Part shown: piece by piece, positions 56,558 to 64,000 of the stretch
Layout: every line of letters starts with the position of its first letter
Numbering within the stretch: position 1 is the stretch's first letter
From: an uncultured Hyphomicrobiales bacterium
GTDB lineage: Bacteria > Pseudomonadota > Alphaproteobacteria > Rhizobiales > Kaistiaceae
Direction of reading: 5' to 3'
DNA length: 64,000 nucleotides
Assembly: GCA_964483325.1 (NCBI GenBank)
Contig: CAZAAW010000002.1
Location: 88,226-152,225, forward strand
The notes under the pieces: model-generated
What the model was told of the DNA's origin: nothing
The model's database searches: none
Seen by the model: the letters and a program-made list of their open reading frames with translations, nothing else
Translations under genes and position numbers: made by a program

Positions 56558-57457
56558 CTATTCGACGACCTGGTACTCGACGCGGCGGTCGAAGGCGAAG
56601 ATCTGGTCCTCGCTGTACTTGCTGGCGTCGTCGGGCGTGAACGGCTCCGACTCGCCGCGGGCGCTGATCTCGATCGGCATCCGGTAGCCGAGCTGCTTCA
56701 GGTAGTCGGCGACGCTGCGCGCCCGGCGGTCGGAGAGGTCGAGATTATACTGGTCCGAGCCACGCGGGTCGGTATGGCCGATGATCACCAGCTTGGCCGC
56801 CGGCACATCCTTGACGTAGTCGAAGATGTTCTGGACAGCGGCAATGCCGGCCGAGGTCAGGTCCGCCGATCCGGTATCGAACTGCACCGGCACCGGCACG
56901 GAGGTGGCGGTGAAGGTGCGGAAATGCGGGTCGGCGAGGCCGCTGACGCGGCCGCGGAAGGCACGGCTGGCGATGAAGGTCGGCGCCAGAGCGCGTGCCT
57001 GGACGGCGCGCTTGTAGGTCCGCTGCTCGACATCGGCGGGCGGCGCCTGCGGATTGGCGGCCGTGTCGCGCATGTCGTCGAGCGCCTCCTCATAGGTGGC
57101 GACGGCGCTCGCCCATTCCTCGCGGTCGTAATAGGCGTCGCCGAGGGCGACGAGCACCTGCCACGGCCGGCCATAGCGCGTCACGGCGCTGATGTCGGCC
57201 GGGGCAACGTCTGTTTGCAGCTCCGTCAGGGCGATGCGCGCCATCATGCGGCCGATCTGGCTGCGGAAATTGGCGTCGCAGGTGGGATCGCCCTGCATGG
57301 TCTGGAAGAGGCCGTCGAAGCGCTCGATGGAGCGCGACTGAAGCGCCGAGGTGATGTCGTCGTTCAGGGCGGCGCATTCGGCAGCCGCCGGACCCGCCGA
57401 CAGCGCCAGAAGCGCCATCGGCAGGGCGGCGGCCGCCCACAGGCGGGCAGCGCGCAT
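56558..57457 (-). CDS. secreted OmpA-C-like peptidoglycan-binding protein
   Basis: Signal peptide (ALPMALLALSAGPAAAE). C-terminal OmpA motif LVIIGHTDPRGSDQYNLDLSDRRARSVADYL. Its start is 1 nt after the stop of the upstream gene. Confidence 0.85.
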   Translation of the reverse strand: MRAARLWAAAALPMALLALSAGPAAAECAALNDDITSALQSRSIERFDGLFQTMQGDPTCDANFRSQIGRMMARIALTELQTDVAPADISAVTRYGRPWQVLVALGDAYYDREEWASAVATYEEALDDMRDTAANPQAPPADVEQRTYKRAVQARALAPTFIASRAFRGRVSGLADPHFRTFTATSVPVPVQFDTGSADLTSAGIAAVQNIFDYVKDVPAAKLVIIGHTDPRGSDQYNLDLSDRRARSVADYLKQLGYRMPIEISARGESEPFTPDDASKYSEDQIFAFDRRVEYQVVE

Positions 57458-57458
57458 C

Positions 57459-60218
57459 TTACTGCACCTGCAGCTTGATCGCCGAGCGCACGACGATGTC
57501 GTCGGCGGCCGGCGGGGCCGGCGGAGCCGCAGCGGGGATCTGCTGCTGCTGGGCGGCGGCCTCGATGATGATCTGGCGGGTGCGGGTCACCTGCTGGGCA
57601 ATATGCTGCTCATAATTGCCGATGTCGGTGAACTGCGCCTGCCGGAAGTTGTGCTGGATGTCGTCGACCGGCTTGTTCAGCACGCTGCATACCGCGATCA
57701 CCGTCTCCTCGCCATGATCCCGGAAGCGGAACTGGTAGGGAGCGCCGGCCGCCGGGAACTGGAAGTCCCTGCCGGCGACGATGGCATTGTTCTGCTCGAA
57801 GCTGTTCGGGTACAGCACCGTCGCCGTGCCCTTGCCGTCGACATTGATCAGCGTCAGGTAGCAGTCACGCTTGGTGCTGATGGTGAACACCGGCAGGTCA
57901 CCGACGCGGTAGGCGGCGGCGTTGGCGGTGATGGCGAAGTCGAAGTTGTGCGCGACGTCCGGCGCGGCGATCTGCGCGACGGTGACGACCGGCACCGGCC
58001 CGACCTCCTGCTTGAGGCTGGCAAGGTCCAGCATCTCGTCGTCGGAGACGCGCTCGACGAGGGCCGAGAACAGCCCCTCGAGATTGTCGCGCGGCACCAG
58101 GCCCTGGTCGAGACGCCGCTGCAGGCGGACGGCTTCGTCGGTGCCGGCGGTGGCCAGCGAGGCCTCGAACTCCTCCAACGGCTGGCCGAACTCGGCAGCC
58201 ACGAGACGAAGGTCGACGGCGCTTTCGAACTTGTTCGACAGCGCGTTGATCATCTCGACGCCGTTGAGTTTCAGCGTCGGATCAAGGCCGGCGGCCCGCA
58301 TCGCATTGATGAAGCGCTGCGTGTCGCCTTCCAGCAGGGCGTCCATCCTGTCATGGGGCGGATAGAGCGCCGCCACGGCCTCGCGTGCCGCCCGCGGGAA
58401 GGTGCGGCTGGCGAGAACCTGATCGCGGACCTCGTCGCGCGCCTTGCGGATGCCCTGGTCGTGGCAGCCCATGCAGGAGATGCCGTTGGTCACCGTCAGG
58501 TCGCGCCGCGAGATGTCGCGGACGATCGTCGTCGGACCCTTGGGAATGTGCGCGCCGGCCGACGTGTTCAGGTAGTAGCCCTGGAAGCCGTTCGGCAGGG
58601 AGAAGATCGACTCGCCGCCATCATGATGGAAGGCGAACTCGCCGTCGCCCGGCCCGAGCGGGAACTCGAACAGGCTCTGCCGCTCCCTGTTGCCGGCGAA
58701 GTCGTAGGAGGTCCAGAGGTAGCCGGTGCTGATCGGATGACGCTCGATCAGGCGGTTGTTCTGCGACACGCCCGACTGCTGGAAGGCGGCGCGCTGGGCG
58801 ATGAACCGGTTCAGATTGCCGGCGATATCGACATTCAGGTAGCGCTCGAACTCGGAAAAGTCGCTTGCCACGCCGTTGGCCGGCAGCCCGAGCAGCTGTT
58901 CGTAGAGCGGCGGCTGGGCGGCGGTGAAGGCGAACCAGTCGCCCCGGATATAGGGCAGCAGCGTCAGCGTCGCCGACGACACGAAGTCGAACATCGGGCT
59001 GTCGGGCTTGCTGGCATAGGGATAGACCGAGATGAGCTTGTCCCAGTCGGTCGCCGACCAGCCGACATCCTTCAGATTGAAGCGGATGATCGTCCCGGCG
59101 TCGTTGATGGCCTCGAGGCGCACGACGTCGGAGACGCGCGACAGCGAGTTCAGCAGCTTCACGACGGCCTGGCGATAGACCTCCATCTCCTGGTCGCTGG
59201 AGCAGGCATTGTAGAGATGCGTCAGCGTGATGTAGCGCGTGTCGGCAATGCGCGTCGGCGGCAGGTTCTGGATGTCCCGGGCCATGGCCTCGGTCTCCAT
59301 CACCGGCGTGATGAACTCGCGCGTGCTGCAGGCGGCCGCAACGTTGGCGCCGAGCGATTCGACCCAGGTGCGCAGGGCCGCGACATCCGCTTCCGTCGGC
59401 GGCTCGCCGCTGAACTCGTAGAAGACATCATACGGCATTTCCTGGTTGAGGATCTGCTGGATGAGCTTGGAGCCGTCGGGATTGCCGGGGGCGATGCGCA
59501 CCGGGTCTGCGGCGATCTCGTCGAGATGCAGGATATTGCCGAAATTCTTCGCCGGCTTGGCACGGCCGCCGAGCATGCCGTCCTGGTGGCAGCGGGCGCA
59601 GTGGCGGTCCAGCACGTCGAAGGCGGCGGCGGCGATTGGATCGGCCGGGCGCTCGATGCCCGGCGGCAGGGCTGCCACGTTAACCGGCGCTGCCGGGGCG
59701 GCCGGTGCTGCCGGAGCGGCGACCGCGGGCGGCGCGTCCGCCGGGCCGACGACGCCCGGGATCTCGATGCCGTCGAGCGGATCACCGGCCGGCGCGGCCG
59801 GCTGCTGCGCGATGGCCGGCGGAGCGGCAGGCGCATCAGCCGGCTGATCGATAACGCCGGGAATCTCGATGCCGGCGAGCGGATCGTCGTCCGGCGCGTC
59901 AGGCTGCTGCGCAATCGCCGGCGGAGCGGCGGGCGCATCGGCCGGCTGGTCGACGACGCCGGGGATCTCGATACCGGCCAGCGGGTCGTCGTCCGGCGCA
60001 TCGGCGGCCGGTCCGTCGACGACGCCGGGAATGTTGATGCCGGCGAGCGGATCGTCGGCGGGGGCGGCGGAGGCGCCGGGCTCGACCGTCAGCTGGCGCG
60101 GCGGCTGGGCGCCGTTCGCCGGCGGGTCGTCCTGCGCCAGCACCGCCGTCGCGGTGATGGCGACCGTGCCGCTGAGCAGCAGCGCGGTGCAGGTTATCTT
60201 TGCGTATCGGGCAAACAT
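57459..60218 (-). CDS. secreted 919-aa protein with Pro/Ala-rich tandem repeats, two CxxCH haem-c motifs and a C-terminal DUF4384-like domain
   Basis: Start taken at MFARYAKIT (ATG at 60218, with GGAGG 5 nt upstream). The signal peptide ends AVLAQ. CARCH is at 59586-59600 and CMGCH at 58461-58475. The C-terminal VGDLPVFTISTKRDCYLTLINVDGKGTATVLYPN pattern is also present. Confidence 0.8.
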   Translation of the reverse strand: MFARYAKITCTALLLSGTVAITATAVLAQDDPPANGAQPPRQLTVEPGASAAPADDPLAGINIPGVVDGPAADAPDDDPLAGIEIPGVVDQPADAPAAPPAIAQQPDAPDDDPLAGIEIPGVIDQPADAPAAPPAIAQQPAAPAGDPLDGIEIPGVVGPADAPPAVAAPAAPAAPAAPVNVAALPPGIERPADPIAAAAFDVLDRHCARCHQDGMLGGRAKPAKNFGNILHLDEIAADPVRIAPGNPDGSKLIQQILNQEMPYDVFYEFSGEPPTEADVAALRTWVESLGANVAAACSTREFITPVMETEAMARDIQNLPPTRIADTRYITLTHLYNACSSDQEMEVYRQAVVKLLNSLSRVSDVVRLEAINDAGTIIRFNLKDVGWSATDWDKLISVYPYASKPDSPMFDFVSSATLTLLPYIRGDWFAFTAAQPPLYEQLLGLPANGVASDFSEFERYLNVDIAGNLNRFIAQRAAFQQSGVSQNNRLIERHPISTGYLWTSYDFAGNRERQSLFEFPLGPGDGEFAFHHDGGESIFSLPNGFQGYYLNTSAGAHIPKGPTTIVRDISRRDLTVTNGISCMGCHDQGIRKARDEVRDQVLASRTFPRAAREAVAALYPPHDRMDALLEGDTQRFINAMRAAGLDPTLKLNGVEMINALSNKFESAVDLRLVAAEFGQPLEEFEASLATAGTDEAVRLQRRLDQGLVPRDNLEGLFSALVERVSDDEMLDLASLKQEVGPVPVVTVAQIAAPDVAHNFDFAITANAAAYRVGDLPVFTISTKRDCYLTLINVDGKGTATVLYPNSFEQNNAIVAGRDFQFPAAGAPYQFRFRDHGEETVIAVCSVLNKPVDDIQHNFRQAQFTDIGNYEQHIAQQVTRTRQIIIEAAAQQQQIPAAAPPAPPAADDIVVRSAIKLQVQ
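59748..60056 (-). repeat. in-frame tandem repeat encoding four DPL(A/D)GI(E/N)IPGV(V/I) units separated by Pro/Ala-rich spacers
   Basis: DDPLAGINIPGVVDGPAADAPD / DDPLAGIEIPGVVDQPADAPAAPPAIAQQPDAPD / DDPLAGIEIPGVIDQPADAPAAPPAIAQQPAAPAG / DPLDGIEIPGVV. Two central units of about 100 nt are near-identical. Confidence 0.8.
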
Positions 60219-60295
60219 CGTCGCCTCCATTCGGCTCAAGCAGATTTGAGGCTCAAGACCTCTGTTGCGGGGTCCGCATGGCTCGGTTCGTTCTT

Positions 60296-61783
60296 CTATT
60301 TTATTTCATAGCGCAGCACGGCCACCGACCAGTCATGCGAAACCGTCGGCTCGGTCACGGCTGCCGTCTGGGCAGGTGCGTTGAGGGCTGCGGCAATGGC
60401 CGGCAGGAACTCCTGCGTCGCCTCCTGCCGCGGAATGACCTCGATGCTGCGGGTCTTGACGGTCGGCGGCATCTCCACCGGGCCGTTGGTAACAAGGGCG
60501 ATCAGCGTGCCGCGCGACGGCGAGGTGGCATCGAAGCTGATGCCGTAATAGGCGTCCGGCACGGTGATCGGGCTGTTCGGCAGGATGACGCCAACGCGGC
60601 CGTCGCGGCGCGTGTGCTCGTTGGGGAAGAGCTGCACCAGCGTGCCGTCGTCCGACAGGTCGAGCAGCACCAGGTCGCCCTCGACCGGGCTGGTGACGGT
60701 GAAGCGGATATTGCGCGTGCCGAGCCGCACCGGCGACGGCGGGTCCTGGCTGAGCGTGACGTTGAGCGTGTTGCCCTTGCCGAAATAGTCGAGGATCTGG
60801 TCGGTGGTCAGCATCGGCGGCTCCGCCTGCGCCACGGCAACCACCGGCGCCGGCGCGAGAAGCGTGCTGCCGGCCGCGGCGGCGGGGCCGAGCGTCGGCG
60901 TCAGGCCGAGCGAGCAGCCCTCGACCGTCGCGCAGGCCTGCTGCGCCTGGTCGCGCAGATAGGCCAGCACTTCGGCATTGGAGACGGTGCCGTTGCCATT
61001 GGCGTCGGCGCCGGCCTGGGCGAGGGCGGCAACGAAAGCCGCGGTGAAGACACCCTCGCCGTCGGCGACGAGGGCCGTCTGGCCGCCGGCGGCGGCGGTG
61101 AAGACGGCGACGTCGCCGGACAGGCGATCGGTATCGAGGGCCGGACCTTCCGCCTTCTGCGCCTGCGCCGCCGGCTCGACGACGATCGAGCGGGTACGGT
61201 TGGCGATGATCGGGGCGCGGAAAGCGGCGCTCGGCGTGAAGGAGGTTTCCGCGTCGGCGGTCACGACGCCGGAATAGCCGGCATCGATCACCACCGACAC
61301 CTTGCGTCCAGTCATGGCGTCGATGAGCAGATTGAGCTCGTCGTCGCTGATCATGCCGGTGACGGCGCTGCCGACCACCTTGGCGTCGAAGGGCACCAGC
61401 GTCTCGTCGAGGCCGTCGGCCTCGTCGCCATCGTCGTCCGGCTGGAAGTAGCCGTAGCCGGAATAATAGAGAAAGACCCGCTCGCCCGGCTTGGTGCCGC
61501 TGACCAGCCAGTCGGTGATCGCCGACTTGATCCCCTCCAGCGTCGCCTCCTCGTTGGCGACGACGCGGATGTCGCTGTCGCCGTAGCCCAGCGTCTCGGT
61601 CAGGAGGCGCTGCACGGCGGCGATGTCGCGGCCGGCCGTGCCGAGCCCGGCGCTGCCCAGGGCGCTGTCGGCATAATGGTCGATGCCGATGAGAAGGGCG
61701 CGGTCGGCAAGGGCCGGCACGGCGGCCGCCGCCAGCATGGCGGCCGCTGCCGCACCCGAGAGGAGGAAGCGCCGGAGCGACAT
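60296..61783 (-). CDS. secreted pseudo-caspase (peptidase C14 fold, catalytic His and Cys both replaced) with an EF-hand loop and a DUF4384-like C-terminal domain
   Basis: Start at MSLRRFLLSG; the ATG shares one base with the upstream TAA. RALLIGIDHY, YYSGYGYF (Tyr at 61454-61456 where His is expected) and VIDAGYSG (Gly at 61277-61279 where Cys is expected). The first ~375 aa of the 870-aa track ORF are a shadow frame over the upstream gene. Confidence 0.8.
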   Translation of the reverse strand: MSLRRFLLSGAAAAAMLAAAAVPALADRALLIGIDHYADSALGSAGLGTAGRDIAAVQRLLTETLGYGDSDIRVVANEEATLEGIKSAITDWLVSGTKPGERVFLYYSGYGYFQPDDDGDEADGLDETLVPFDAKVVGSAVTGMISDDELNLLIDAMTGRKVSVVIDAGYSGVVTADAETSFTPSAAFRAPIIANRTRSIVVEPAAQAQKAEGPALDTDRLSGDVAVFTAAAGGQTALVADGEGVFTAAFVAALAQAGADANGNGTVSNAEVLAYLRDQAQQACATVEGCSLGLTPTLGPAAAAGSTLLAPAPVVAVAQAEPPMLTTDQILDYFGKGNTLNVTLSQDPPSPVRLGTRNIRFTVTSPVEGDLVLLDLSDDGTLVQLFPNEHTRRDGRVGVILPNSPITVPDAYYGISFDATSPSRGTLIALVTNGPVEMPPTVKTRSIEVIPRQEATQEFLPAIAAALNAPAQTAAVTEPTVSHDWSVAVLRYEIK

Positions 61784-63384
61784 TACTGGTCTCCCGAGGT
61801 GTAGATGCCGACAAGGCCGACCTGGAACTTCGTGTCGCCGAGGACCGTCGCCAGCGTCGAGGCAAGACCGGTGGCGCGGTCGGCGGTGCCCATCGTCCGC
61901 AGCGCCGCATGGAGGGCCGTGGCCGGCTCGGCGGTCAGGATGGCAACCAGATGCTCGGCGCCGAAGGGCGGATCCTGGACGCGCAGGCGCTGGCTCATCT
62001 CCTGGCCGGTCCAGTCGGTCAGCGTCTCCTCGCGGTTCTGCGGGATGAAGAATTCCACCCGGCCGTTGGGCGGCAGGTTGAACAGCGTCAGGTAGGGCAG
62101 CGTCGCCCCGCTCATGCGGAACTCGACGATGTCGCCGCGGCGGTTGACCTGGTTGCCGCTGGTCAAGGTCAGCGACAGCGGGTCGGCGGCGGCATGCGCC
62201 TTGAGATAGGCCAGTGCCGACCATTTCGAGAGCACGGCGGCAATGCCGTCGGGGCCGATCTGCTCGGCGACGCGGCCGCCGATGCGGTGGTCGACAGTGC
62301 CGGCGGCGACGTCCCAGATGAGGTCGGCCTCGGCTTCGTCGGTCGTCTGGGCGACGCCGGTCATTTCCGGCAGCGCCGCGTCGCCGCGGACGAGGACGCG
62401 CACCAGGATATCCTGCGGCGTCGTGGCGACGGTCGGCGCCTCGATGCTGCGATTGATGCGGATGACGGGCTTGGCGTCGGCGCCCAGCGGCAGCACGGAC
62501 GGGATCTGCTGGTTCTCGGCCTGGGTCTCGACCGTCGGCACCAGATAGGACAGCAGCTCCTGCTGGCTGAGGGCGCCGTCGCCATCCTTGTCGGCGGCGC
62601 CTTCGAGGGCGCGCGAGAAGGCCCAGCTGAGGGCGCCGCGCGGCTTGCCGTCGATCGTCAGCTCCGGCGTCAGCCGCCCCTCCTGGGTGGCGCCGATGAA
62701 GGTGACGGCCGAGAAATCCTCCTCGCCCATCTGGGCGAATTGCGGCCCGGGCAGCCGCAGCAGGTCGTCGGTCAGCGACGGATCCTCGAACGTGCCGGTG
62801 CGGTAGCGCACGGTGCGGCTGGAAATGTCGCGATACATCGTGCCGGAATGGCAGGAATCGGCGACGAACACGACCTCCAGGCCCTTGTCGTCGCCGGCCT
62901 TCAGCCACTCGAACATCTCGTCGTCGACGATGCGCTCCAGCGAGCCGGGGCCGCTCGGCGTATAGCCGCCAAGGAGGAAATTCTCGTTGAGGCCGTCCTC
63001 CTCGAAGTGCTGGCCCGGCGGCTCCGGCTCCTGGCTGCCATGACCGGCATAGGAGAAGATGACGGTGTCGCCGGGCTGCGCGGCATTGATCAGCCGGAAC
63101 CAGTTCTCCTGGATGGCGGCCTTGGTGGCCTGTGCGTCGGTGAGCAGCACGACTTCGGAAGCGCCGGCCTTGCGCAGCGTCTCGGCGATATCCTGCGCGT
63201 CGTTGACGGCGCCGAAGAGATCGTTGGCCGTGCCGACATAGTCGTCGATGCCGATGACGAGGCCGTAGGTGGCCGCCGCTGCCGGGAGAGCCGGAAGCGC
63301 CGCCGCGGCGAGACCGGCAAAGCCGATCAGCGGCGCGGCCCTTCGCATCCTGCGCAGCGATCCCATTAGCGTCGTCATGGACAT
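61783..63384 (-). CDS. secreted caspase-like cysteine protease (peptidase C14) with an EF-hand loop and a DUF4384-like C-terminal domain
   Basis: Signal peptide (APLIGFAGLAAAALPALPAAAA). YGLVIGIDDY, SYAGHGSQ (His codon 63040-63042) and VADSCHSG (Cys codon 62851-62853). EF-hand DKDGDGALSQQE. C-terminal GDIVEFRMSGATLPYLTLFNLPPNGRVEFFIPQN. Confidence 0.85.
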   Translation of the reverse strand: MSMTTLMGSLRRMRRAAPLIGFAGLAAAALPALPAAAATYGLVIGIDDYVGTANDLFGAVNDAQDIAETLRKAGASEVVLLTDAQATKAAIQENWFRLINAAQPGDTVIFSYAGHGSQEPEPPGQHFEEDGLNENFLLGGYTPSGPGSLERIVDDEMFEWLKAGDDKGLEVVFVADSCHSGTMYRDISSRTVRYRTGTFEDPSLTDDLLRLPGPQFAQMGEEDFSAVTFIGATQEGRLTPELTIDGKPRGALSWAFSRALEGAADKDGDGALSQQELLSYLVPTVETQAENQQIPSVLPLGADAKPVIRINRSIEAPTVATTPQDILVRVLVRGDAALPEMTGVAQTTDEAEADLIWDVAAGTVDHRIGGRVAEQIGPDGIAAVLSKWSALAYLKAHAAADPLSLTLTSGNQVNRRGDIVEFRMSGATLPYLTLFNLPPNGRVEFFIPQNREETLTDWTGQEMSQRLRVQDPPFGAEHLVAILTAEPATALHAALRTMGTADRATGLASTLATVLGDTKFQVGLVGIYTSGDQ

Positions 63385-63474: not shown

Positions 63475-64000
63475 TTACTGCGCCTGCGCCGCTTCCGGCT
63501 CCGCCGCTGCCGCGGCCGGCGCCGAGGTGATCGGCGGCCGGCTCATCAGGTAAGCGACGATGGCCTTCTGGTCCGCCTCCGGCAGGGCCTGCAATTCGCG
63601 CAGCACCTTGCCCATGCCGCCGCTGGAGATCGGCTTGCCGTCGGCATTGAGGCCGAACATGAAGACGTTGAACATGAAGTCGTCCAGCGTCAGCTTGCCG
63701 ATGCCGGTTTCCTTGTCCGGCGTCAGGTTGGGAACCGAACCGCGGCCTTCCAGCGACGGTCCGCCCGCCAGCTCGCGGCTCTCGTCAGGGCCGAGGATGA
63801 GGTTGCGCGGCGTATGGCACTCGCCGCAATGGCCGGGACCGCGCACCAGATAGGCGCCGTGGTTGACCTCCTCGCTGGCATCGGGGTCGGGCTCGAAGGT
63901 CTTGCCGTCGATATAGAGGAGCTTCCACAGGCCGACGCCGCGCCGGATGTTGAACGGGAACGGCAGGTCGGTTGCCGGCGGCTGGTTGGCGACCGGCGGC
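63475..64000 (-). CDS. c-type cytochrome, C-terminal part of a multihaem dehydrogenase-type cytochrome c subunit; 5' end outside the window
   Basis: The frame stays open to nt 64000 (PPVANQPPATDLPFPFNIRRGVGLWKLLYIDGKTFEPDPDASEEVNHGAYLVRGPGHCGECHTPRN). This pattern is typical of the third haem domain of membrane-bound alcohol/gluconate dehydrogenase cytochrome subunits. Confidence 0.75.
   Translation of the reverse strand, partial: PPVANQPPATDLPFPFNIRRGVGLWKLLYIDGKTFEPDPDASEEVNHGAYLVRGPGHCGECHTPRNLILGPDESRELAGGPSLEGRGSVPNLTPDKETGIGKLTLDDFMFNVFMFGLNADGKPISSGGMGKVLRELQALPEADQKAIVAYLMSRPPITSAPAAAAAEPEAAQAQ

What the first reader, a model, noticed from the sequence alone, without database searches (positions are those of the whole stretch)
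57459..60218. Large secreted protein combining DPLAGIEIPGV tandem repeats, two isolated CxxCH motifs and a DUF4384-like end
Following the signal peptide, the protein contains in order:
- four DPL(A/D)GI(E/N)IPGV(V/I) units separated by Pro/Ala-rich spacers (nt 59748-60056; the two central ~100-nt units are nearly identical, implying recent duplication or a contraction/expansion-prone tract)
- the first haem motif CARCH
- about 370 aa with no recognisable domain
- the second haem motif CMGCH
- a helical region
- the DUF4384-like domain and a Gln/Pro/Ala tail

I do not recognise this architecture. The spacing of the two haem motifs, about 375 aa apart, is unlike classical dihaem cytochromes or peroxidases.
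Basis: seen in the sequence. Interest (0 to 1): 0.6.

Follow-up and report, generated by a model that had tools for sequence, protein, structure and literature searches.

The report
Exported two-haem protein, undescribed core domain
This gene encodes a secreted protein with two covalent-haem attachment sites. Its large middle domain matches no described protein family and no solved structure. The protein belongs to a big, unstudied bacterial family that is regularly encoded beside exported proteases, or fused to membrane signalling kinases, so it probably links the redox state of the cell envelope to protein cleavage or signalling.

Summary
Window 60218-57459 (minus strand) encodes a 919-aa Sec-exported protein. 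In order it has:
- four DPL(A/D)GI(N/E)IPGV units
- CARCH (aa 207)
- CMGCH (aa 582)
- a helical stretch
- DUF4384 (Pfam E 1e-16)
- a Q/P/A tail

One detail fails. The two central 102-nt units are 87% identical in DNA, with 11 synonymous and 2 non-synonymous codon differences (dN/dS 0.045). The duplication is therefore old and the peptide is under selection; this is not a fresh or slippage-prone tract.

The protein is not an orphan. Thousands of relatives keep both CxxCH motifs 364-375 aa apart.
- **Haem-1 domain:** a PSCyt1/FoxE-type class I cytochrome c.
- **Next 450 aa:** zero Pfam hits even at E<=10. The AlphaFold2 model is confident (pLDDT 90, pTM 0.91) but has no PDB neighbour.

In Hyphomicrobiales the gene follows either caspase plus pseudo-caspase, as here (also with a membrane dihaem cytochrome c and an OmpA anchor), or ECF sigma/anti-sigma plus subtilisin. 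In Planctomycetota the same module forms the extracytoplasmic part of Ser/Thr kinases.

My best reading (about 0.45) is a redox- or ligand-responsive input subunit for envelope proteases. The main rival is a two-haem enzyme. No experimental data were available.

The parts
57459..60218 (-). Whole coding sequence, 919 aa plus stop (P0001)
   Evidence: Single copy in the 3.1-Mb genome.
60224..60228 (-). Shine-Dalgarno GGAGG, 5 nt before the ATG at 60218. It supports the ATG rather than the TTG at 60239 as the start.
   Evidence: The closest homologue P0004 starts MFAR as well.
60135..60218 (-). Sec-type signal peptide, aa 1-28, with the likely cut after AVLA. Cys10 lies before the hydrophobic core, so there is no lipobox.
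   Evidence: Read from the sequence. Export is also supported by the co-varying Cys297/Cys339 pair.
59649..60134 (-). Pro/Ala/Asp-rich linker, aa 29-190. It carries four DPL[AD]GI[NE]IPGV[VI] cores at 60053-60018, 59987-59952, 59885-59850 and 59783-59748.
   Evidence: The motif occurs nowhere else in this genome or in 60 relatives. P0004 has two copies.
59334..59648 (-). Haem-1 domain, aa 191-295: class I cytochrome c of the PSCyt1/FoxE type. CARCH is at 59600-59586; the candidate distal Met261 (EMPYD) is at 59438-59436.
57984..59333 (-). Central domain of undescribed fold, aa 296-745. It has an alpha/beta part, a beta-sheet part, CMGCH at 58475-58461, then a helical bundle. Superfamily-wide conserved residues include R328, W392, D427, Y439, R476, R489, E492, W502 and R710. 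His494 (58739-58737) is 78% conserved.
57684..57911 (-). DUF4384 beta-sandwich (PF14326), aa 770-845, with the invariant Cys786/Cys844 pair
   Evidence: It resembles the C-terminal parts of both neighbouring caspase homologues.
57462..57569 (-). Gln/Pro/Ala tail, followed by a conserved terminal beta-strand (DIVVRSAIKLQVQ)
56558..57457 (-). Downstream operon partner: a TPR plus OmpA-like peptidoglycan anchor. Its start lies 1 nt after the stop of the haem protein.
56509..56533 (-). Intrinsic-terminator-like hairpin (11 pairs, T-run) directly after the OmpA-like gene. It marks the end of the operon.
60296..61807 (-). Upstream partner: a caspase homologue (Peptidase_C14) with a weak DUF4384 match.
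61783..63384 (-). Upstream partner: a caspase-like protease (Peptidase_C14) whose C-terminal part aligns with the DUF4384 of the haem protein
63475..64000 (-). First gene of the operon, running past the window end: a membrane-anchored dihaem cytochrome c (CASCH, CGECH)

Best explanation
Shown:
- The gene encodes a Sec-exported protein with two strictly conserved c-type haem attachment motifs.
- It belongs to a very large uncharacterised family.
- Haem 1 (Cys207/Cys210/His211) sits in a PSCyt1/FoxE-type class I cytochrome c domain. Met261 is its probable sixth ligand.
- Haem 2 (Cys582/Cys585/His586) sits in a 450-aa domain with no sequence or structural relative.
- A DUF4384 beta-sandwich closes the protein.
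- It is the fourth gene of a five-gene operon: membrane dihaem cytochrome c, caspase-like protease, second (pseudo-)caspase, this protein, OmpA-like anchor, then a terminator.

Inferred mechanism:
1. The membrane cytochrome exchanges electrons with haem 1.
2. Haem 1 relays them to haem 2.
3. The redox or ligand state of the central domain is read out by partner proteins. Here these are the caspase pair, which carry the same DUF4384-type module, held at the cell wall by the OmpA-like protein.

On this reading the protein is the input (sensing or regulatory) subunit of an envelope protease module. In other lineages the same module feeds a subtilisin plus an ECF sigma/anti-sigma pair, or a fused Ser/Thr kinase.

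The DPLAGIEIPGV units are selected reiterations of the short segment that caps the haem-1 domain. They are probably extra docking sites.
For: Haem and export:
- Both CxxCH motifs are present in all 121 close homologues, spaced 364-375 aa, and in 131 of the 148 listed representatives; most of the other 17 are shorter, likely fragmentary entries.
- There is a signal peptide, and CcmE is present in the genome.
- Cys297/Cys339 co-occur in 55 modules and are both absent in 72, which fits a disulfide.

Haem-1 domain type.

Central domain:
- No Pfam hit.
- Model with pLDDT 90.4 and pTM 0.91.
- Best Foldseek match against the PDB has E 0.21 and TM<=0.11.

Partners swap around a constant haem protein. 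In 83 loci:
- 37 have ECF sigma, anti-sigma and an S8 peptidase upstream.
- About 20 have caspase homologues.
- One S8-to-caspase swap is nested inside the S8 clade.
- Other neighbours are a PG_binding-caspase, M16 peptidases, FecR, a trypsin gene directly upstream and a caspase-FGE gene directly downstream.
- One relative is fused to a papain-like Peptidase_C1.

Input-domain logic:
- Architectures of the form Pkinase-TM-module, zf-HC2-Pkinase-TM-module, FHA-module and DnaJ-TM-module occur.
- These genes are often directly downstream of an ECF sigma gene.

Other points:
- The haem protein is at least as conserved as its operon partners, for example 54% identity against 39-42% for the partners in Labrys.
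- DUF4384-like modules are shared with both caspase homologues.
- Operon packing and terminator.
Against: - There is no experimental datum. Haem attachment, spin state and any protease effect are all untested.
- Most family members are free secreted 'module plus binding domain' proteins, with TPR, WD40, NPCBM or DUF4384. That pattern fits a targeted enzyme just as well.
- Many polar residues are 97-100% conserved across 29-51% identical sequences. This is more typical of an active site than of a sensor.
- Candidate distal ligands are not universal: Met261 81%, His494 78%.
- One relative (P0236) has lost the proximal His (CPSCN) but keeps all the other conserved residues. The conserved site may therefore work without haem.
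- Some loci have the cytochrome and the OmpA gene but no protease (L007).
- Gene neighbourhood shows association, not the direction of control.
Confidence: 0.45

Rival explanations
1. It is a two-haem redox enzyme. Haem 1 is the electron-relay centre, fed by the membrane dihaem cytochrome c. Haem 2, in the new-fold domain, is a catalytic centre that oxidises, reduces or cross-links an envelope macromolecule. The C-terminal binding domain (DUF4384 here; TPR, WD40, NPCBM or EGF elsewhere) recognises that substrate. The neighbouring proteases process the same substrate or mature the enzyme.
For: - The layout 'class I cytochrome c domain plus a large domain with a second haem' is that of many haem enzymes (established knowledge: cytochrome cd1, CcpA/MauG, TsdA).
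- A dihaem membrane cytochrome c gene sits upstream in 12 of the loci, sometimes without any protease.
- Charged and aromatic residues are very strongly conserved: R328, D427, Y439, R476, R489, E492, W502, R710.
- Most relatives are free secreted proteins with a swappable binding domain.
Against: - There is no similarity to any known haem enzyme in sequence or fold.
- The module serves as the extracytoplasmic part of Ser/Thr kinases, FHA proteins and anti-sigma-like proteins, which is the usual position of a sensor.
- A variant without the proximal His keeps the other conserved residues.
- No candidate substrate gene travels with it.
Confidence: 0.3
2. It is mainly a substrate or scaffold. The protein is an envelope structural or adaptor protein that the neighbouring proteases cut, for example in the Pro/Ala-rich linker, or that simply holds them at the cell wall. 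The haems play only a structural role.
For: - It has a long disordered linker of variable length.
- Protease genes lie directly beside the gene in many lineages.
- DUF4384 modules are shared with the caspase homologues.
- A haem-site-less relative exists.
Against: - Both haem motifs are conserved across all 121 close homologues and in 131 of the 148 listed representatives, the exceptions being mostly shorter, likely fragmentary entries. That is hard to explain for a passive substrate.
- Most homologues have almost no linker, about 50-65 aa before haem 1.
- The haem protein is more conserved than the proteases.
- Kinase fusions lack any protease.
Confidence: 0.12
3. It is a periplasmic electron shuttle or metal oxidoreductase of the FoxE kind, and the protease neighbourhood is incidental.
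For: - The family profile matches the FoxE haem domain at E 1.5e-7, sharing a PGxPxxSxL...MPP motif.
- A membrane cytochrome c partner is encoded alongside.
Against: - The match covers about 80 aa only. FoxE has two tandem class I domains and nothing like the 450-aa core.
- Association with proteases, kinases or sigma factors recurs across phyla.
- Distribution is patchy, 6 of 41 related genomes. That does not suggest a core respiratory role.
Confidence: 0.08

Closest known systems
PSCyt1 'planctomycete cytochrome c' domain (PF07635; Studholme et al. 2004, as cited in PMC3542564) and the proteins that carry it
   Same: The haem-1 domain is of this type: CxxCH, then PGxPxxSxL...MP. 34 of 48 diverse family members pass the Pfam model. 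It is extracytoplasmic and combined with WD40 and other binding domains, as described for Verrucomicrobium and planctomycetes.
   Different: The window protein itself scores below threshold, 12.4 bits against 22. The usual PSCyt1 partners, PSCyt2/PSD1 (DUF1549/DUF1553) and PSCyt3/PSD2-5, are absent; a 450-aa domain with a second haem motif and no Pfam model follows instead. The function of PSCyt1 proteins is itself unknown.
FoxE, the dihaem c-type iron oxidoreductase of Rhodobacter ferrooxidans SW2 (PDB 5mab)
   Same: It is the best solved relative of the haem-1 domain (family profile E 1.5e-7). His/Met ligation there is from my own knowledge of the FoxE literature and supports Met261 as the sixth ligand.
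   Different: FoxE is 291 aa and has two tandem class I domains. It has no counterpart of the central domain, DUF4384 or the repeats, and no protease context.
Bacterial orthocaspases and pseudo-orthocaspases with DUF4384 (Klemencic et al. 2019, PMC6426788)
   Same: These are the operon partners here, and they share the C-terminal DUF4384 module. That paper notes DUF4384 on alphaproteobacterial pseudo-p20 proteins and on kinases.
   Different: This protein has no p20 domain. The paper does not mention a haem protein partner: 'cytochrome' occurs 0 times in it.
Dihaem cytochrome c peroxidases / MauG (PF03150)
   Same: They are exported and have two c-type haems, one for electron transfer and one reactive.
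   Different: There is no Pfam or PDB match. The haem motifs are 375 aa apart rather than roughly 140-150 (the latter figure is from my own knowledge), and the fold is different.
Periplasmic haem-c sensor domains of chemoreceptors and kinases (for example Geobacter GSU0582/GSU0935 PAS-type sensors; own knowledge)
   Same: The proposed working principle is the same: a covalently bound haem in an extracytoplasmic input domain attached to signalling outputs.
   Different: No PAS or Cache signature and no structural match were found. The module is about five times larger and has two haems.

Membership tests
c-type cytochrome (covalent haem via the Ccm system) | CxxCH motif(s) conserved among relatives | tested here: met
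   Both motifs are present in 121 of 121 close homologues and in 131 of 148 listed representatives. None of 20,000 shuffles gave two motifs.
c-type cytochrome (covalent haem via the Ccm system) | Export to the periplasm and a maturation system in the genome | tested here: met
   A signal peptide is read from the sequence. Co-varying Cys pairs are present. CcmE is found at 119 bits.
c-type cytochrome (covalent haem via the Ccm system) | Haem actually bound covalently | not testable with these tools
   This needs haem staining or mass spectrometry of the expressed protein.
PSCyt1 (PF07635) / class I cytochrome c | Score above the Pfam gathering threshold | tested here: not met
   The window protein scores 12.4 bits against a cut-off of 22, E 0.26; Cytochrom_C scores 19.1 against 21.3. 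Homology is transitive only: 34 of 48 relatives pass.
PSCyt1 (PF07635) / class I cytochrome c | Distal Met in a conserved 'MP' motif after PGxPxxS | tested here: met
   PGNPDGSKLIQQILNQEMPYD aligns with the FoxE sequence [20 protein letters not shown]. Met261 is kept in 104 of 128 modules.
DUF4384 (PF14326) | Score above the Pfam gathering threshold | tested here: met
   61 bits against a cut-off of 27, aa 770-845. Foldseek finds Ig-like beta-sandwiches.
Dihaem cytochrome c peroxidase / MauG (PF03150) | Sequence or fold match to the CCP_MauG domain | tested here: not met
   There are no Pfam hits even at E<=10 for aa 296-745, and none in the PDB sequence, profile or fold searches.
Planctomycete PSCyt2/PSD1 and PSCyt3/PSD2-5 modules (DUF1549/1553/1585/1587/1588/1592/1595) | Pfam match in the region after the first haem domain | tested here: not met
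   The central 450 aa gave 0 families at E<=10, and three distant relatives gave none of these families. None is among the 25 most frequent families in 48 relatives.
FoxE-type dihaem cytochrome | Two tandem class I haem domains | tested here: not met
   Only the first haem domain matches FoxE. The second motif lies in an unrelated 450-aa domain.
Anti-phage defence proteins (PADLOC) | Match to any PADLOC model | tested here: not met
   P0001 matched 0 families. The neighbours hit only generic caspase and MotB models.

The most novel reading that the evidence does not exclude
The 450-aa central domain is a new haem-c protein fold. Together with its PSCyt1-type relay haem, it serves as a general extracytoplasmic redox or ligand input module. 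Bacteria from Alphaproteobacteria to Planctomycetota plug it into interchangeable outputs: exported proteases of at least three or four unrelated catalytic classes (caspase, subtilisin, trypsin, papain-like), Ser/Thr kinases, and ECF sigma/anti-sigma pairs. On this reading the operon here is a redox-gated periplasmic caspase system.
Probability: 0.35. Interest if true: 0.75.

Novelty: new variant of a known kind. Interest (0 to 1): 0.55.

Why it matters
Exported bacterial caspase homologues, and the many pseudo-caspases of Alphaproteobacteria, have no known trigger or substrate. This protein is the most conserved partner in their operons. It is the only component that could plausibly carry a signal, namely electrons or a haem ligand.

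If the central domain is a new haem-binding fold used as an input for proteases, kinases and sigma factors, three things follow:
- It would define a new class of envelope signalling.
- It would give a Pfam-less domain present in thousands of protein clusters its first functional handle.
- The role of periplasmic caspase-like proteases would become directly testable in cultivable Labrys, Afipia and Bradyrhizobium strains.

If it turns out instead to be an enzyme, it is a new haem enzyme family.

Tried and rejected
Database and structure searches that returned nothing useful:
- Pfam, NCBIfam and PADLOC on the whole protein and on pieces gave only DUF4384 plus sub-threshold cytochrome c models.
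- PDB by sequence gave only a chance low-complexity match to TamB in the linker, E 0.028.
- PDB by family profile hit only the haem-1 domain.
- Foldseek on the 730-aa model returned only beta-sandwich hits for DUF4384.
- Foldseek on the 450-aa core model returned nothing.
- Literature searches for DUF4384, PSCyt1 and orthocaspase plus cytochrome found no paper that describes this family.

Readings rejected:
- CCP/MauG or planctomycete PSD modules: rejected.
- Recent duplication or a slippage-prone repeat: rejected, dS 0.60 and dN/dS 0.045.
- TTG start at 60239: rejected in favour of the ATG, because of the Shine-Dalgarno sequence and the homologue N-terminus.
- Lipoprotein: rejected, because Cys10 precedes the hydrophobic core.
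- DUF4384 in the subtilisin partner: not found.

Repeat copy number among close strains could not be compared:
- No genome of the same genus is held.
- The motif is absent from 60 relatives.
- A degenerate DNA scan of JGI metagenomes found 0 matches.

Other limits:
- One paper search failed on a term that was too short.
- Model coordinates are not exposed, so I could not measure haem-ligand distances or check whether the conserved residues cluster in space.
Full report
**1. The observation**

The minus-strand ORF 57459..60218 encodes 919 aa. The ATG at 60218 is preceded by GGAGG at 60228-60224, and the closest homologue also begins MFAR. The ATG, not the upstream TTG, is therefore the start.

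The N-terminus, MFARYAKITCTALLLSGTVAITATAVLA|QD, has the shape of a Sec signal peptide. This is read from the sequence.

Four DPL[AD]GI[NE]IPGV[VI] units lie at aa 56, 78, 112 and 146 (nt 60053-59748). CARCH is at aa 207 and CMGCH at aa 582. None of 20,000 shuffles of the mature sequence gave two CxxCH motifs. Pfam finds DUF4384 at aa 770-845 (61 bits, cut-off 27) and nothing else above threshold. NCBIfam and PADLOC find nothing.

All stated features are therefore real and at the stated coordinates.

**2. The repeats**

Tandem Repeats Finder reports a 102-nt period, 2.5 copies, 86% matches. The two central 34-aa units are 32/34 identical as protein but only 87% identical as DNA.
- They differ at 11 synonymous and 2 non-synonymous codons.
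- dS is 0.60 and dN/dS is 0.045. The excess of synonymous changes has p = 2e-5.

This duplication is old, and the peptide, spacer included, is under purifying selection. It is not a recent or slippage-prone tract.

The motif occurs nowhere else in this genome or in 60 related genomes. It was not found in JGI metagenomes. The closest homologue, P0004 (63% identity, same operon), has two copies. Three other homologues have a single DPLDEILKEAE, and most have only 50-65 aa before haem 1.

Read in the register GIE-I-P-G ... D-P-L-A, the array ends in the true junction GIERPADPIAAAAF. This junction corresponds to the conserved ...I-x-x-P-x-DP(V/I)A(K)AAF cap in front of the haem-1 helix in 121 homologues. 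I infer that the units are reiterations of this cap segment with an inserted Pro/Ala spacer, and that they may be docking peptides. This is inference only.

**3. A large family with two invariant haem motifs**

A word-index search found at least 959 relatives. The best 120 are 56-67% identical over aa 195-745, and all carry PF14326. The exhaustive search found 4511 clusters at E<=1e-3 and 1593 at E<=1e-30.

All 121 close sequences have exactly two CxxCH motifs, 364-375 aa apart. Other supporting points:
- Cys297 and Cys339 co-occur in 55 modules, are both absent in 72, and occur singly once. Cys786/Cys844 are invariant in DUF4384. Both patterns fit disulfides in an exported protein.
- The genome encodes CcmE.
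- The gene is single-copy in this genome.
- It is patchily distributed, in 6 of 41 related genomes.
- On a tree it groups with the Bauldia (Kaistiaceae) proteins, with support 95.

**4. Domains**

*Haem-1 domain (aa 191-295).* The window protein is sub-threshold for Cytochrom_C and PSCyt1. However, 34 of 48 diverse relatives pass PF07635 PSCyt1 at that position. A family profile hits the haem domain of FoxE (PDB 5mab) at E 1.5e-7, through PGxPxxSxL...MPP. Met261 is kept in 81% of 128 modules.

*Central domain (aa 296-745).* It gave no Pfam family even at E<=10. The AlphaFold2 model is confident, with pLDDT 90.4 and pTM 0.91: an alpha/beta part, beta-sheets, the CMGCH loop, then a helical bundle. 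Foldseek against the PDB gives a best E of 0.21 and TM<=0.11.

Across modules that are 29-51% identical, the following residues are 97-100% conserved: R328, W392, D427, Y439, R476, R489, E492, W502 and R710. His494 is 78% conserved.

The domain also occurs without the PSCyt1 domain (P0157, P0158, P0160). One relative, P0236, has CPSCN instead of CxxCH yet keeps all the other conserved residues.

*DUF4384.* In the 730-aa model it matches only generic Ig-like sandwiches.

**5. Gene context**

*In this genome.* The operon runs: membrane-anchored dihaem cytochrome c, caspase-like protease, second caspase homologue with DUF4384, this gene, TPR-OmpA anchor. The genes overlap or lie at most 90 nt apart. 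A strong terminator follows at 56533-56509. The DUF4384 of this protein aligns with the C-terminal part of the active caspase (E 6e-4). Pfam also finds a weak DUF4384 in the other caspase homologue.

*Across 83 loci.*
- 37 have ECF sigma, anti-sigma and a mycosin-like S8 peptidase upstream (36, 35 and 37 hits respectively). A TIGR03809 gene follows in 30. These are Afipia, Bradyrhizobium and Pseudorhodoplanes.
- About 20 have the caspase arrangement, usually with OmpA and, in 12 of the loci, the cytochrome. These are Bauldia, Labrys, Methyloligellaceae and Hyphomicrobiaceae.

*Other neighbours.* A PG_binding-caspase with OmpA, an RTX protein with OmpA, a FecR protein, and M16 peptidases.

*On the tree.* The S8 type forms one clade (support 100), with a caspase-type locus (L055) nested inside it. 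At least 9 context changes are needed. The haem protein is at least as conserved as its partners.

**6. Distant relatives**

Six contexts were looked up:
- ECF sigma, globin-domain protein, then [Pkinase-TM-module-FGE-sulfatase].
- ECF sigma, then [Pkinase-TM-module].
- ECF sigma, Pkinase-WD40, then [module-WD40].
- Trypsin, then [module-EGF].
- [Cytochrome-module-DUF4384], then [caspase-SH3-FGE-sulfatase].
- One context (P0213, module-WD40) with nothing obvious.

A transmembrane helix separates the cytoplasmic kinase or DnaJ part from the module.

Among the 120 best relatives of a planctomycete (Gemmataceae-type) member, by my count from the listing:
- 17 carry Pkinase, some with a zf-HC2 anti-sigma finger.
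- 9 carry NPCBM.
- 4 carry FGE-sulfatase.
- One carries FHA.
- One carries a papain-like Peptidase_C1.
- Most of the rest carry TPR or WD40.

**7. Interpretation**

*Shown.* The protein is exported and carries two haem-c motifs. It has a PSCyt1/FoxE-type first domain, an undescribed second domain and a DUF4384 end. It is the constant element of envelope gene sets whose other members change.

*Inferred.* Electrons from the membrane cytochrome reach haem 1 and then haem 2. The state of the core domain controls, or is read by, the associated output: a protease, a kinase or a sigma factor. I put this at about 0.45.

*Main rival (0.30).* The protein is a two-haem enzyme, targeted by its C-terminal binding domain. 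Strict conservation of polar residues and the many free 'module plus binding domain' proteins favour this reading.

*Lesser rivals.* A substrate or scaffold role (0.12) and a FoxE-like shuttle (0.08).

The tools cannot separate these.

**8. Earlier notes of this scan**

Notes seen describe the same family in other genomes with similar readings. I saw the cross-genome notes only after the synteny, fusion and first fold results were already in hand. I treat these notes as leads, not as independent support.

**9. Verdict**

This is a real member of a large but undescribed haem-protein family with an apparently new core fold. Its 'isolated haem motif' and 'recent duplication' readings are not.

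Noticed in passing
window 56509-56533 (-): A strong intrinsic-terminator-like hairpin (11 pairs, 7 GC, T-run) sits directly after the OmpA-like gene. The SAM-methyltransferase gene at 55680-56504 is therefore a separate transcription unit.
   Followed up: partly
window 63475-64000 and beyond (L097:201-1229, -): The first operon gene is a dihaem cytochrome c (CASCH, CGECH) with an N-terminal membrane helix, IVVALIVLAIIGGAAFWFL. In three loci (L007, L058, L064) its homologue lies directly upstream of the haem-DUF4384 gene with no caspase between them.
   Followed up: partly
L021 (contig labelled Sediminibacterium ginsengisoli, Bacteroidota): This contig nests inside the Afipia clade on the tree. 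Its ECF sigma is 99% identical to the Bradyrhizobium/Afipia one. It is probably a mis-binned alphaproteobacterial contig.
   Followed up: no
P0236 (704 aa, representative library): This family member lacks the PSCyt1 domain and has CPSCN in place of CxxCH, so the proximal His is lost. It still keeps all the other superfamily-conserved residues.
   Followed up: partly
P0290 (931 aa) and P0191 (856 aa): The module is fused directly to a papain-like Peptidase_C1 domain in one protein and to an FHA domain in another. Both assignments come from precomputed Pfam annotation and I did not rescan them.
   Followed up: no
Locus of P0217 (JGI 3300047160, no DNA held): An ECF sigma gene and a 472-aa Bac_globin-domain protein sit directly upstream of the Pkinase-TM-module-FGE-sulfatase gene. 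Two different haem proteins are thus present in one signalling cluster.
   Followed up: no
L055 (Bradyrhizobium sp. LjRoot220): Within the subtilisin-type clade, this locus instead has the haem protein followed by an OmpA-like gene and a caspase homologue downstream. This looks like a recent exchange of the protease partner.
   Followed up: partly
L001:11445-11774 and 29 other loci: A small TIGR03809-family gene follows the haem protein in the subtilisin-type loci. Its function is unknown and it did not match the DUF4384 tail.
   Followed up: partly
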